Of a stretch of 64,000 nt of DNA, positions 7,709 to 59,753 are shown in pieces. This stretch comes from Octopus vulgaris (Eukaryota). Position numbers and translations under genes: made by a program. The number at the start of each line of letters is the position of its first letter. The first letter of the stretch is position 1. The notes beneath the pieces are model-generated. The model did no database searches. It saw only the letters and a program-made list of their open reading frames with translations, and had not been told where the DNA came from. The stretch lies in contig OX597815.1 in assembly GCA_951406725.2 (NCBI GenBank), positions 107,694,001 to 107,758,000 of the forward strand, in the 5' to 3' direction.

Positions 7709-9850
7709 CCCAATCTGGCTCTTGCGAGCAACAAAAACCTGAACCATCTCCAATCTGCTTCCTTCGATTGGAAGAGAGCAGATTGGAACCTGTACCACAC
7801 TGAACTACAGCACCCAAACTGGCGTGAATTCTACAACTCTGGAGATGTGAATACTATACTCCAGAGTATCCTGGACTCAATATGGGCAGCATGTGCAGCA
7901 TCAGTGCCACGTAAACAAAAAAAGAAGAACCGCCCCAAAAGGGCAATTTGGGAAACTTCAGCGGTCCGACTTGCCAGGAGGGAACGTCGGACTGCTGAAC
8001 GGGAATACAGGTTGCATAAATCAGACACCAACAGGAAGAAGCGGAATAAATCCTCCAACCATCTCAAGCAAGTGACAAAAAAAGCAGTGCTTGAATTTGA
8101 ACAGTGCATAGCAGCCAATCCTGACAGCAAGGTTTTCTGGAAATATGTGCACTCAAAGCAGAGACCTCACTCTCCAGTGGGCCCTCTTCGCAACCCTCAC
8201 ACAAACCAGATCACTGACGACCCCAAGGAATGCGCAGAACTTATTGCCGAGTGCTATGCAAACATATTCACTGTTGAAAGTCAAAATGTACCATCTTCAC
8301 CATCACTAACAGCAAACTCCATAACAACTATGGAATTTACACCTGCAATGCTGCGACGTCACCTTCAAAATAAGCGCAACTATGCCTCCCCTGGTCTCGA
8401 TGGAGTTACATACCTGCTTCTCAAACGTGGCAGGCACTTCCTTTTACACCAGCTTTCTATTTTCTTCCAGTACTGTCTCAACAATGGTGCTACTCCGGAG
8501 CAGTGGAAAACTGCCAGTGTCATTCCTCTGTTCAAAAAGGGCGACCGCACATCACCTGTCAACTATCGCCCAGTCAGTCTCACTAGCTGTATTGCAAAAC
8601 TGATGGAATCGTGTGTCAGAGAAACACTCTGGAACTTCTGGAGCTCTCACAGTCTCATCCGACCCTCACAATATGGATTTGTCCCTAACTCCAGCTGCAG
8701 TGACCAGCTTGTCGAGTTCCTTGAGGACATTACTCAGATTACTGACAGTGGCTCATGGGTGGATGTTGTCTACCTTGACTTTGCTAAGGCTTTCAACTCT
8801 GTGCCACACAAAAGGCTTATGGTGAAACTCTCTGCAATGGGTGTGGGGGATGACCTTTTTAACTGGTTGAAATCCTTCATCCTCAGCCGAAAGGAGGTAG
8901 TCACAGTTCTAGGACAGCACTCTACACCATATGAGATGTCATCGGGTGTACCACAGGGATCTGTCCTTGGCCCCCTCTTGTTTGTGGCATACATTAACGA
9001 CATAGATGCCAATTTGGAGAATGCCACAGTATTGAAATATGCAGACGACATCAAGCTGTACCTTGAAATCAAGAGGACAGATCCTGATGTCTACAACTCT
9101 TTCCTGCAATCAGACCTAGACACAATGCAGCAATGGATCACAGACTGGCAACTGAAACTGGCTGTGGACAAGTGTACCACCATGCATTTTGGGAGAAAAA
9201 ACCCTGCGTTCACATACTCCCTCCACAACACTGATATCAAGAAATCCTCTTGCGAGCGTGACCTAGGCATCACTGTCAGCAGTGATTTGCGTTGGTCAAA
9301 GCATATCTCTAAGATTGTCAGGAAGGCCGAGGGTGTCTTGGCATCACTCAGCAGGTCTTTTGTTAGCCGCTCTCCAGCCATCTATTTAAAACTGTATACA
9401 GCTATGGTACGACCACACTTGGAATTCGCATCATCAGTTTGGAACCCCTATCTTGCACAGAACATTGACCTCCTGGAATCTGTCCAGAGACGTGCAACCA
9501 AACGCATACCCTCCATCAGACACCTACCATATTCTGAGCGCCTTGTTTCCCTGGGCATGGATTCACTGAAGCTCCGGCGTTTGGCGACGGACTTGGTAAA
9601 CACCCACAAAGTTATCAACCACCTCACCAACAACAACACTGAACACCTTTTTGATCTCCATGTGTCTAACACACGTGGACATGCCTACAAAGTCAGAAAA
9701 CAATACAGCTCCCATGACTTTCGGAAACATTTTTTCACGCTCAGAGTTGCTGAAGCATGGAATAAACTGCCTGCGTCAGTTGTTGACTGCCATGACACTG
9801 CATCTTTTAAGGCCCTCATGCTTTCCGAAATCCGCCGAAACTTCACCTGA
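7709..9850 (+). CDS. LINE ORF2 fragment: reverse transcriptase (CR1-type), no start codon or endonuclease domain
   Basis: Frame is open from 7709 (after TGA at 7706-7708) and runs through track ORF 7847..9850; motifs FDWKRADW, SPGLDG, NYRPVSLTS, YLDFAKAFNSV, GVPQGSVLGPLLF, YADD, ERDLGI, TRGH, FFTLRV..WNKLP. Confidence 0.9.
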   Translation, partial: PNLALASNKNLNHLQSASFDWKRADWNLYHTELQHPNWREFYNSGDVNTILQSILDSIWAACAASVPRKQKKKNRPKRAIWETSAVRLARRERRTAEREYRLHKSDTNRKKRNKSSNHLKQVTKKAVLEFEQCIAANPDSKVFWKYVHSKQRPHSPVGPLRNPHTNQITDDPKECAELIAECYANIFTVESQNVPSSPSLTANSITTMEFTPAMLRRHLQNKRNYASPGLDGVTYLLLKRGRHFLLHQLSIFFQYCLNNGATPEQWKTASVIPLFKKGDRTSPVNYRPVSLTSCIAKLMESCVRETLWNFWSSHSLIRPSQYGFVPNSSCSDQLVEFLEDITQITDSGSWVDVVYLDFAKAFNSVPHKRLMVKLSAMGVGDDLFNWLKSFILSRKEVVTVLGQHSTPYEMSSGVPQGSVLGPLLFVAYINDIDANLENATVLKYADDIKLYLEIKRTDPDVYNSFLQSDLDTMQQWITDWQLKLAVDKCTTMHFGRKNPAFTYSLHNTDIKKSSCERDLGITVSSDLRWSKHISKIVRKAEGVLASLSRSFVSRSPAIYLKLYTAMVRPHLEFASSVWNPYLAQNIDLLESVQRRATKRIPSIRHLPYSERLVSLGMDSLKLRRLATDLVNTHKVINHLTNNNTEHLFDLHVSNTRGHAYKVRKQYSSHDFRKHFFTLRVAEAWNKLPASVVDCHDTASFKALMLSEIRRNFT

Positions 9851-13366: not shown

Positions 13367-13436
<70 letters not shown>

Positions 13437-13610
13437 AACTTATAAATAAGGGCAAACGAAAAAAATTTTCTAATGCCAAATATGCCGAAATTAGACACAT
13501 AGTCTATAACCATATAATTTATCACAATATGCACTTAGTTGTGCTCATGACTTAGTATTTGCTTCTTCCATGGGTATGAGTAAGTATTTCATTTATTTCT
13601 TTGCCACATT

Positions 13611-13663
13611 TATCACTGACGAAGGGAGGGTTCTTATGAACTAACCCTGAAATCGGTCTGATA
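13611..13663 (+). ncRNA. Type I hammerhead ribozyme, copy 1
   Basis: UAUCA-CUGACGA-AGGG-agg-GUUC-uuau-GAAC-uaa-CCCU-GAA-AUCGGU-C-UGAUA; perfect 5-bp stem I; GUC site at 13658. Confidence 0.85.
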
Positions 13664-14087
13664 TGGTAATAATGGAATTTTTTAGAAATTTCTGTCGACC
13701 TTTTTCGAGTAGCGTGCGTATTGTTATAAATTATATGGTTATTGACTATGTGTCTAATTTCAGCATATTTGCCATTAGAAAATTTTTTTCGTTTGCCTTT
13801 ATATAAGTTGTTTATAAATTTAACCTTTAATGGTATTTTTTAATATGTTGGCCATTGATAAAATTTATTTTTCGAAAAAATTTTATCCTACATTAGATGT
13901 AAATTTAATAGTGTTCACTTCCAGATTCTCTCACTCTGTGAGAGTTTCAGTTCGAATCGCACGTGTCTCGAATGGGCTGGAGAATTTCTATTTTGGATAT
14001 ATTTGGGGTACTTAGTTATGCTCATGACTTAGTGTTTGCTTCTTCCATGGGTATGAGTAAGTATTTCATCAATTTCTTTGCCACATT

Positions 14088-14140
14088 TATCACTGACGAA
14101 GGGAGGGTTCTTATGAACTAACCCTGAAATCGGTCTGATA
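14088..14140 (+). ncRNA. Type I hammerhead ribozyme, copy 2 (identical to copy 1)
   Basis: Same sequence as 13611-13663; GUC site at 14135. Confidence 0.85.
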
Positions 14141-14377
14141 TGGTAATAATGGAATTTTTAAGAAATTTCTGTCGATCTTTTTCAAGTAGCATGCATATTG
14201 TGATAAATTATATGGTTATAGACTATGTGTCTAATTTTGGAATATTTGGCATTAGAAATTTTTTTTCATTTGCCCTTATTTATAAGTTGTTTATAAATTT
14301 AACCTTAAAGGTATTTTTTAATATGCTGGCCATTGATAAAATTTATTTTTCAAAAAAATTTTATCCTACATTAGATG

Positions 14378-14451
<74 letters not shown>

Positions 14452-36443: not shown

Positions 36444-36490
<47 letters not shown>

Positions 36491-36492
<2 letters not shown>

Positions 36493-37689
36493 AATCAAAT
36501 CAAACCAAATCAAAATAGATGAACATCAATGGAATTTGTATCTTTGTGGTACCAGCACCGGTGGCACACAAGAAAACCATCCGAACGTGGCCGTAGCCAG
36601 TACCGCATCGACTGGCCTCTGTGATGTGGGCACATAACAAACACCATCCGATCGTGGCCGTCCGCCAGCCTCATCTGGCACCTGTGTCGGTGGCACATAA
36701 AAACACCAACCGAAGACCCGGCAAGACTAGTCAGGCCATAACCCATGGCCCCTACTTGGGACGTAGTCAGTCCACCTGTGCATACCTTCCTTCCTTCTTG
36801 TGACACTTGTGAAGACCTGTGAAGACCTGTTGAGGCAAGTGAAAATCAAATCAAATCAAATCAAAATAGATGAACATCAATGGAATTTGTATCTTGTGGT
36901 ACCAGTGCCGGTGGCACACAAGAAAACCATCCGAACGTGGCCGTAGCCAGTACCGCATCGACTGGCCTCCGTGCTGTGGGCACGCAACAAACACCATCCG
37001 ATCGTGGCCGTTCGCCAGCCTCATCTGGCACCTGTGTCGGTGGCACATAAAAACACCATCCGAAGACCCGGCAAGACTAGTCAGGCCATAACCCGTGGCC
37101 CCTACCTGGGACGTAGTCAGTCCACCTGTGCATACCTTCCTTCTTGTGACACTTGTGAAGACCTGTTGAGGCAAGTGAAAATCAAATCAAATCAAAACAA
37201 ATCAAAATAGATGAACATCAATGGAATTTGTATCTTTGTGGTACCAGTGCCGGTGGCACACAAGAAAATCATCCGAACGTGGCCGTAGCCAGTACCGCAT
37301 AGACTGGCCTCCGTGCTTTGGGGACGTAACAAACACCATCCGATCATGGCCGTCCGCCAGCCTCATCTGGCACCTGTGTCGGTGGCACATAAAAACACCA
37401 TCCGAGCGTGGCCGTCTGCCAGCCTCGTCTGGCACCTGTGTCGGTGGCACATAAAAACACCATCCGAGCGTGGCCGTTCGCCAGCCTCGTCTGGCACCTG
37501 TGTCGGTGGCACATAAAATCACCCACTACACTCTCGGAGTGGTTGGCGTTAGGAAGGGCATCCAGCTGTAGAAACACTGCCAGATCTGACTGGCCTGGTG
37601 CAGCCTTCGGGCTCCCCAGACCCCAGTTGAACCGTCCAACCCATGCTAGCATGGAAAACGGACGCTAAATGATGATGATGATGATGATG
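36491..37689 (+). repeat. Tandem triplication (~350-bp period) of an RTE 3' UTR ending in the terminal module and (GAT)n
   Basis: Units start with (CAAAT)n at ~36491, ~36845 and ~37182; near-identical AAATAGATGAACATCAATGGAATTTG blocks. Confidence 0.85.
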
Positions 37690-59204: not shown

Positions 59205-59273
59205 ATGATGATGGTAATGATGATGGTAATGATAATGATGATGCTGATGAGGATGATGATGAGGATGATGATG

Positions 59274-59304
<31 letters not shown>

Positions 59305-59503
59305 CAACCTTTGAAATTTTCCATACAAAAGGGTTTTTAATCCAATATTCTCTGCTGGTTGTCCACTCTGCTGGGTGGTTGGTGTTAGGAAGGGCATCCA
59401 GTTGTAAAAAACAGTGCCAAGACAGACACAGAAGTCTGGTGCTGGCTCCTGCCTGGCCGGCTCTTGTCAAATGATGATGATGATGCTGATGAGGATGCTG
59501 ATG

Positions 59504-59585
<82 letters not shown>

Positions 59586-59753
59586 CAACCTTTGAAATTT
59601 TCCATACAAAAGGGTTTTTAATCCAATATTCTCTGCTGGTTGTCCACTCTGCTGGGTGGTTGGTGTTAGGAAGGGCATCCAGTTGTAAAAAACAGTGCCA
59701 AGACAGACACAGAAGTCTGGTGCTGGCTCCTGCCTGACCGGCTCTTGTCAAAT
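59205..59753 (+). repeat. Near-perfect tandem duplication (period ~281 bp) of a (GAT)n tract plus RTE-type terminal fragment
   Basis: 59301-59472 and 59582-59753 differ at about one position. Confidence 0.85.

What the first reader, a model, noticed from the sequence alone, without database searches (positions are those of the whole stretch)
13431..14378. Protein-free retrozyme-like unit: two identical hammerheads 477 nt apart with an inverted leader, inside (TA)n
Seen: direct repeats 13533-13900 and 14010-14378 each contain the same 53-nt type I hammerhead (stem I UAUCA/UGAUA, core CUGACGA...GAAA, GUC sites at 13658 and 14135). The ribozymes are identical while flanking parts of the repeats differ. 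Stem III (AUCGGU) is too short to close alone but is self-complementary with G-U pairs. 13431-13533 is an inverted copy of part of the unit. There is no meaningful ORF. Established: Penelope-like elements carry minimal hammerheads in tandem/inverted pLTRs that cleave as dimers, and metazoan non-LTR retrozymes produce small circular RNAs from tandem hammerhead units. Inference: a transcript could fold a double hammerhead and release a 477-nt monomer, possibly circularised and mobilised by a PLE RT. I do not know of such a family described from cephalopods.
Basis: partly seen in the sequence, partly recalled or inferred. Interest (0 to 1): 0.88.

Follow-up and report, generated by a model that had tools for sequence, protein, structure and literature searches.

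The report
Protein-free Penelope hitchhiker with twin ribozymes
This is a near-complete copy of an abundant protein-free repeat that carries two hammerhead-ribozyme motifs and is likely moved by Penelope-type retrotransposon enzymes; the ends of its many copies suggest it is copied from one linear, uncut RNA that is likely primed at two fixed sites, one for each end of a TA-repeat break, rather than from a circular RNA.

Summary
In detail: two 93%-identical repeats 477 nt apart, each with a minimal type I hammerhead, a 5' inverted copy, no ORF, inside (TA)n. It is one of at least 873 hammerhead-bearing places of a dispersed family and has the layout of a non-autonomous Penelope-like element (pLTR - 109-nt spacer - pLTR plus inverted arm), i.e. 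an animal 'non-LTR retrozyme'. Stem II covaries across subfamilies, but the identity of the two ribozymes here is not special. Copies end at two fixed sites (A, B; ~85 nt apart), not at the ribozyme cut. In 35 of 37 classifiable inverted insertions one end is A and the other B (17 of 18 in a sister family); the two arms share alleles, and 15 of 35 cannot be fold-backs of each other. Neptune-type autonomous PLEs with intact ORFs exist in the genome, but none sampled shares this pLTR. Cleavage and circRNA are untested. Known kind, new family, useful mechanistic signature.

The parts
13370..13433 (.). left (TA)32 target microsatellite
13432..13534 (-). inverted, 5'-truncated arm, unit positions ~182-284; its outer end is start site A; 2-nt overlap (AC) with the direct copy at the head-to-head junction
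13533..13900 (+). pseudo-LTR 1 (unit 1-368); begins at the family's hard 5' stop, so the direct arm is near full length
13570..13585 (+). ATG followed by a splice-donor-like GTAAGT (13580-13585), 92-100% conserved per position except one site at 83%; no conserved acceptor found
13611..13663 (+). minimal type I hammerhead 1: stem I UAUCA/UGAUA, core CUGACGA 13616, stem II with internal loop, GAAA, palindromic AUCGGU, predicted cut after C13658
13811..13900 (+). ~85-nt 'tail' between start site A (~13811-13816) and start site B (~13900); holds the motif at 13845 shared with sister families
13901..14009 (+). 109-nt non-coding spacer, standing where an autonomous PLE has its ORF
14010..14378 (+). 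pseudo-LTR 2, ends at start site B and runs into TA repeat; site A at ~14290-14295, tail motif at 14323
14088..14140 (+). minimal type I hammerhead 2, identical to hammerhead 1, predicted cut after C14135
14380..14446 (.). right (TA)33 target microsatellite; no target-site duplication can be told inside the repeat

Best explanation
The locus is a near-full-length copy of an ORF-less repeat family with Penelope-type layout (pLTR - spacer - pLTR plus an inverted 5' arm, in TA repeat) that is likely a non-autonomous Penelope-like element moved in trans by a Neptune-type RT/GIY-YIG protein. Shown: layout, copy number, two fixed 3' end sites A and B, one A and one B end per inverted insertion, shared alleles of the two arms, a hard 5' stop. 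Inferred: a linear, uncleaved RNA of ~1.8 units (~0.9 kb) starting near unit position -30..+12 is bound by the PLE protein (probably a dimer); both strands of a (TA)n tract are nicked; one 3'-OH starts reverse transcription at internal site B and the other at site A, helped by short TATA/AT matches to the target; the two cDNAs stop at random or at the RNA 5' end and are joined head to head. A complete B-primed copy regenerates pLTR-spacer-pLTR, so the element propagates as a partial tandem. The hammerheads are likely real but damped (core predicted to pair with its own stem-III strand; most copies have an A.C mismatch beside the cut) and would cut only as a dimer or with protein help, in a step not needed for insertion.
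For: 873 exact hammerhead-pattern matches, control 0; 4087 first-look candidates, 40 scored. Arm ends cluster at 273-294 and 350-378 and mostly run into TA repeat. 52 head-to-head junctions in 88 loci; of 37 with both ends at A or B, 35 are A+B, p=5e-9; sister family 17 of 18, p=7e-5. Inverted arms disagree at 5.6% of subfamily-diagnostic sites, tandem mates 6.4%, random pairs 39.6%. 15 of 35 A+B pairs are not contained in each other and only 3 of 35 have hairpin-like junctions. 10 of 13 arms reaching the upstream unit start stop within -30..+12, for A- and B-arms alike, p=1.6e-5; no pile-up at the cut site. Intact 781-aa RT+GIY-YIG ORFs with a CX2-5CXXC linker, whose copies also end in (TA)n with an optional tail (6 of 17), are in the genome. 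PMC11167929 (parts 1-2 of 4 read): a PLE protein nicks and extends both strands, starts RT at two internal sites that delimit the tail, is predicted dimeric, and uses uncleaved RNA. Stem II covariation G-C 62 / A-U 42 and U-A 69 / C-G 46.
Against: No autonomous element sharing this pLTR was found: a family profile hit none of the 3' ends in 44 PLE loci beyond unlinked insertions; these loci sample 150 listed of 6136 candidates. The 5'-stop window was chosen after seeing the data, 10 of the 13 arms come from the BLAST-picked set, and 3 of 13 run further (to -513, -560 and a trimer at -943). There is no matching stop at the start of the last unit (3 of 42), which a plain 'promoter in each pLTR' model would predict and which I cannot fully explain. 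Shared alleles show one source locus or subfamily, not strictly one RNA molecule; 1 of 40 inverted and 2 of 40 tandem pairs were discordant. 15 of 52 junctions had one unclassifiable end and were left out of the A/B count. No excess of B arms stopping at A was evident, so collision on one RNA is not shown. In vitro the two start sites showed no strand bias (PMC11167929).
Confidence: 0.75

Rival explanations
1. Classical retrozyme cycle: the dimeric hammerhead releases a 477-nt monomer, a host ligase circularises it, and a PLE RT copies the circle in rolling fashion to give tandem insertions.
For: Meets the operational retrozyme definition (two consecutive units with complete hammerheads, bioRxiv 10.64898/2026.07.22.740005); tandem mates are near identical at diagnostic sites; stem II covaries; double hammerhead is nested and beats two monomers by 5.9 kcal/mol; mussel retrozymes make abundant circRNA (PMC7229834, part 3 read); 3 of 13 long arms pass the cap.
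Against: A circle has no end, yet 10 of 13 long arms stop at one RNA coordinate regardless of start site, and only 1 of 88 loci is a trimer; no ends at the cut site; the active dimer fold lies 15.5 kcal/mol above the predicted minimum and the core pairs with its own stem-III strand at P~0.9; 109 of 121 hammerheads have A.C at the pair next to the cut; 8 of 9 Xenopus dimers did not cleave in vitro in the bioRxiv study. circRNA may still be made as a by-product.
Confidence: 0.15
2. The inverted arm is made by fold-back self-priming of the first cDNA (or of an antisense transcript) and trimmed by the endonuclease, so only one target-primed event occurs.
For: Proposed for rotifer Penelope elements with palindromic junctions (PMC3846280, passages); 20 of 35 A+B pairs are nested, including this window; would also give shared alleles and a one-sided tail.
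Against: 15 of 35 pairs are mutually non-nested (e.g. arm 37-289 with arm 285-351), so neither can template the other; only 3 of 35 junctions are hairpin-like.
Confidence: 0.06
3. These are only 5'-truncated ends of an ordinary autonomous PLE, or locally duplicated satellite-like DNA.
For: PLE insertions are mostly 5'-truncated; the genome has thousands of PLE endonuclease candidates; PLE protein fragments lie within 5.5 kb in 7 of 60 loci.
Against: Upstream of unit position 1 lies unit position 477 in 78 of 92 pieces; the other 14 are 5' ends or inversions with unrelated flanks; the nearest PLE fragment (L091) is separated by a TA run; copies are dispersed on many chromosomes with TPRT-like ends.
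Confidence: 0.04

Closest known systems
Animal non-LTR retrozymes (Cervera & de la Pena 2020, PMC7229834; Li, Clavereau & Pollet 2026, bioRxiv 10.64898/2026.07.22.740005)
   Same: Short ORF-less tandem units, one type I hammerhead each, low GC (32%), palindromic short stem III, co-occurring with PLEs; thought to be non-autonomous PLE derivatives.
   Different: Here mostly sub-dimer, dispersed, 5'-truncated and inverted copies in (TA)n rather than long arrays; hammerhead is of the minimal PLE type; copy ends point to a linear uncleaved template rather than a circle; circRNA not shown. No cephalopod family appeared in my searches.
EN+ Penelope-like elements, Neptune/Nematis type (Craig et al. 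2021, PMC8557442; Arkhipova et al. 2013, PMC3846280; Cervera & de la Pena 2014, PMC4209133)
   Same: Two direct pLTRs plus an inverted 5'-truncated pLTR, minimal hammerhead in the pLTR, tail often at one end only, (TA)n target.
   Different: No ORF (109-nt spacer); tail ~85 nt instead of 30-40 bp; no homology found to the pLTRs of sampled autonomous families.
Anolis Poseidon PAc in vitro TPRT (Frangieh et al. 2024, PMC11167929)
   Same: Two internal RT start sites delimiting the tail, downstream of the hammerhead; AT-rich target; uncleaved RNA is the template.
   Different: In vitro no strand bias between the sites; here the two ends of one insertion almost always use different sites. PAc starts without homology to the target, whereas sites A and B here show short TATA/AT matches.
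MRC1 and other non-autonomous Chlamys elements (PMC8557442, passages)
   Same: ORF-less PLE derivatives forming pLTRs and head-to-tail copies.
   Different: Those lack canonical hammerheads as a clade and resemble their autonomous partners at the 3' end; a partner was not found here.

Membership tests
Non-autonomous Penelope-like element | Partial tandem forming two direct pLTRs | tested here: met
Non-autonomous Penelope-like element | Inverted 5'-truncated copy adjacent to the upstream pLTR | tested here: met
   52 junctions in 88 loci
Non-autonomous Penelope-like element | Fixed 3' ends with an optional tail, variable 5' truncation | tested here: met
Non-autonomous Penelope-like element | Minimal type I hammerhead in the pLTR | tested here: met
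   core intact in 39 of 47 BLAST-picked copies, stem II covariation; Rfam models do not hit
Non-autonomous Penelope-like element | Microsatellite (TA)n target bias | tested here: met
   TA-type run after 54 of 58 A ends and 70 of 80 B ends, raw BLAST pieces with some hairpin self-hits included
Non-autonomous Penelope-like element | No RT/EN ORF | tested here: met
Non-autonomous Penelope-like element | 3'-end similarity to an autonomous PLE in the same genome | tested here: inconclusive
   no hit in 44 PLE loci or 20 tail-variant loci; only a small part of 6136 candidates sampled
Non-autonomous Penelope-like element | Mobilisation in trans by a PLE protein | not testable with these tools
   needs in vitro TPRT
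Non-LTR retrozyme | At least two consecutive units each with a complete type I hammerhead | tested here: met
   15 same-strand hammerhead pairs 462-498 nt apart in 88 loci
Non-LTR retrozyme | Short unit, low GC, no LTR/PBS/PPT, no ORF | tested here: met
   477 nt, 32% GC; above the 150-450 bp of PMC7229834, inside the 51-972 bp of the bioRxiv study; PBS/PPT not searched
Non-LTR retrozyme | Self-cleavage and abundant circular RNA | not testable with these tools
   only assembled contigs available
Non-LTR retrozyme | Spread through a circular RNA intermediate (proposed in the literature) | tested here: not met
   indirect: hard 5' stop, no ends at the cut, one trimer in 88 loci; so I file it as a retrozyme only in the operational sense
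Hammerhead ribozyme (type I, minimal) | Core CUGANGA / GAAA / UH with stems I and II | tested here: met
   10.1-11.1 pair is A-U, and most family copies have A.C at 2.1-1.1 (the window has A-U)
Hammerhead ribozyme (type I, minimal) | Palindromic stem III permitting a dimer | tested here: met
   6-bp duplex -3.1 kcal/mol; nested dimer fold possible but 15.5 kcal/mol above the minimum
Hammerhead ribozyme (type I, minimal) | Catalysis | not testable with these tools
   needs in vitro cleavage

The most novel reading that the evidence does not exclude
Penelope-type integration is an obligatorily asymmetric double priming: one RNP uses both ends of a (TA)n break to start reverse transcription at two different fixed sites on the same linear, uncleaved RNA, which explains the long-known head-to-head inversions and one-sided tails; and a whole clade of cephalopod 'retrozymes' sharing an ~85-nt tail spreads this way, without the circular RNA intermediate proposed for animal retrozymes.
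Probability: 0.5. Interest if true: 0.68.

Novelty: new member of a known kind. Interest (0 to 1): 0.47.

Why it matters
How PLEs make tandem and inverted insertions is named as an open question (PMC8557442, passages), and whether animal retrozymes move through circles is proposed but not shown. This family gives thousands of short natural products whose ends can be counted: the A+B rule, the non-nested arms and the 5' cap make sharp predictions for the existing in vitro PLE assay, and the element is a ~0.9-kb minimal substrate whose ~85-nt tail is a candidate RT-recruiting signal. As a repeat family alone it is ordinary: a likely undescribed member of a known class.

Tried and rejected
Rfam: no hammerhead hit. 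A PLE-specific Pfam accession recalled from memory is not in the library; GIY-YIG used instead. Sequencing runs: no RNA holder listed on record; contigs of four runs guessed to be RNA cover the family at mixed identity but cannot show ends, strand, level or origin, so nothing is concluded on expression; a second lay on DNA runs, meant to look for an empty site and other species, did not complete. Search for the autonomous partner failed: 44 PLE loci, 60 hammerhead loci, 30+28 sister-family loci, 20 tail variants, 100 of 307 read-through places. An intron from GTAAGT 13580 to TTCCAG ~13926 was considered and dropped: that AG is private to this copy and no such joint appeared. 'Selection on this locus keeps the ribozymes identical' rejected; the apparent excess conservation (4.0% vs 6.3%) is ascertainment, since 60 loci were picked by a hammerhead pattern. 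First sister-family count (11 A+B, 7 B+B) was wrong because TA-run hits were classed as B; recounted without them. Collision of the two RTs on one RNA was looked for as short B arms; 7 of 35 B arms are under 90 nt, no more than the truncation rate gives. The Lunse et al. paper on dimeric PLE hammerheads (recalled) is not held. No complex or structure prediction was run: not relevant.

Full report
Observation. Two direct repeats start 477 nt apart (13533 and 14010; 273 nt at 93%, continuing to 13900 and 14378) and an inverted copy of unit positions ~182-284 lies directly in front. The whole sits between (TA)32 and (TA)33. Each repeat holds the same 53-nt motif with CUGACGA at 13616/14093, GAAA, AUCGGU and C17 at 13658/14135. 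There is no meaningful ORF and no PLE protein hit in the window. Rfam has no hammerhead hit. Unit coordinates below count from 13533 = 1; the predicted cut is after 126.

Is the ribozyme real? A hammerhead pattern matches 873 places exactly, the reversed control 0; the window's exact 51-mer occurs 4 times. Across aligned copies stem II shows compensatory changes between subfamilies (pair 93-114: G-C 62, A-U 42, G-U 10; pair 99-108: U-A 69, C-G 46), the core is intact in 39 of 47 BLAST-picked copies, and stem III is palindromic. These counts are copies, not independent events; each change may have arisen once. This matches the minimal PLE hammerheads of PMC4209133 (parts 1-2 of 4 read), which cleave poorly and only as dimers. 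The ribozyme looks damped: 109 of 121 copies have A.C at the pair next to the cut (the window's A-U is a C-to-T change at a CpG), the core is predicted to pair with its own UCGGU (P~0.9), and the double hammerhead lies 15.5 kcal/mol above the minimum-energy fold, two monomers 21.4 (secondary-structure energies only). The identity of the two ribozymes here is not evidence of selection on this locus (P=0.012 post hoc; family test p=0.32).

The family. The unit has 4087 first-look candidates, of which 40 were scored. I examined 88 loci: 28 picked by BLAST score and 60 of the first 100 listed pattern matches, nearly all on one chromosome. Upstream of unit position 1 lies unit position 477 in 78 of 92 pieces, the rest being 5' ends or inversions; PLE protein fragments occur within 5.5 kb in 7 of 60 loci but none is joined to the unit; past site B, about nine in ten of 100 listed places (of 307) run into the same spacer and none shares another continuation (by eye). 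So the element is pLTR (1-~370) + 109-nt spacer + pLTR: a Penelope layout with the ORF missing. The window's pLTRs differ by 7% (JC 0.037 per copy), roughly 10 million years if the calibration in PMC13282606 (passages) applies; it is an old, passive copy.

How copies were made. (1) 3' ends fall at two sites, A (~273-294 as mapped, true junction ~279-284) and B (~350-378, true ~366-370), and run into TA repeat; 5' ends are scattered. (2) 52 head-to-head junctions occur in 88 loci. In 37 both outer ends are A or B, and 35 of these have one of each (expected half, p=5e-9); 15 had one unclassifiable end and were left out. (3) A sister family, found through a weak profile hit, has a different body, its own hammerhead, 480-518-nt units and a homologous tail; of 28 loci picked by an internal motif, 20 are inverted, 18 classifiable, 17 A+B (p=7e-5; the first count was spoiled by TA-run hits). 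The shared tail motif has 4881 exact matches, control 3. (4) The two arms disagree at 5.6% of 50 subfamily-diagnostic sites, tandem mates at 6.4%, random pairs at 39.6%: one source, though not provably one molecule. (5) In 15 of 35 A+B pairs neither arm contains the other and only 3 junctions are hairpin-like, so both arms were copied from a third molecule. (6) Of 13 arms reaching the start of the upstream unit, 10 stop within -30..+12, at the same coordinate for A and B arms (p=1.6e-5; window chosen afterwards; 10 of the 13 from the BLAST set, which should favour longer arrays, not capped ones); there is no pile-up at the cut (2 of 107, 1 of 20) or at the start of the last unit (3 of 42).

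Mechanism. These points fit target-primed reverse transcription by a PLE protein on a linear, uncleaved RNA of about 1.8 units, with the two ends of a TA break primed at B and at A and the two cDNAs joined head to head. PMC11167929 (parts 1-2 of 4 read) supplies the biochemical precedent: both strands nicked and extended, two internal start sites bounding the tail, predicted dimer, hammerhead cleavage not needed. Suitable enzymes exist: 6136 GIY-YIG candidates, many intact 781-aa RT+GIY-YIG frames with the Neptune/Nematis CX2-5CXXC linker, ending in (TA)n with a 36-nt tail in 6 of 17 ends and carrying a different (U3/A8) minimal hammerhead; one inverted autonomous copy (L064) has its tail on one end only. 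But no sampled autonomous family shares this pLTR, so the partner is unknown, rare, diverged or extinct. Unexplained: why priming uses the downstream pLTR almost exclusively; pairing of transcribed (UA)n just after B with the target is one guess.

Comparison and novelty. Non-LTR retrozymes as non-autonomous PLE derivatives are described (bioRxiv 10.64898/2026.07.22.740005, parts 1-3 of 5 read, no molluscs sampled; PMC7229834, passages and part 3, includes a mussel). Direct plus inverted pLTRs with a tail at one end are described qualitatively (PMC3846280 and PMC8557442, passages). I found no paper on a cephalopod hammerhead family or on a counted one-A-one-B rule in eight full-text searches, but the library lacks most subscription papers, I read no supplements or repeat libraries (the family may be listed there as Penelope or unknown; PMC13282606 does not mention ribozymes in its main text; PMC2377424 abstract only), and an earlier unchecked note of this scan reports similar inverted PLE stumps in a shark. 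Interest 0.47.

Noticed in passing
window 7275 (-) and 40606 (-): Two further minimal hammerhead-like motifs of another family (CUGACGA, short stem II, GAAACGUU with palindromic ACGU), near identical to each other; likely ends of another PLE family (the scan was crude and missed the main motif).
   Followed up: no
window 7709-9847 (+): 713-aa open frame with an RVT_1 domain, E=2.6e-37, LINE-like; unrelated to the finding.
   Followed up: partly
L063:1795-2080, L135-L194, L207-L212: Sister non-autonomous family (2454 candidates) with 480-518-nt tandem units, its own hammerhead (mismatch at 10.1-11.1, some U3 variants, longer palindromic stem III), a GTAAGT upstream and a homologous ~85-90-nt tail; further tail-bearing families exist.
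   Followed up: partly
L061:430-5672: Young autonomous Neptune-type PLE with 99%-identical 456-nt pLTRs, a 359-aa upstream frame, a 781-aa RT+GIY-YIG frame and a U3/A8-variant minimal hammerhead with ACAUGU stem III.
   Followed up: partly
L133:3974-4834: Tandem dimer whose two units belong to different subfamilies (10 of 31 diagnostic sites differ): template switch or recombination.
   Followed up: no
window 36489-37405 and 59218-59753: Tandem arrays with 350-nt (2.7 copies, 93%) and 281-nt (1.9 copies, 96%) periods; no hammerhead flagged by the crude scan.
   Followed up: no
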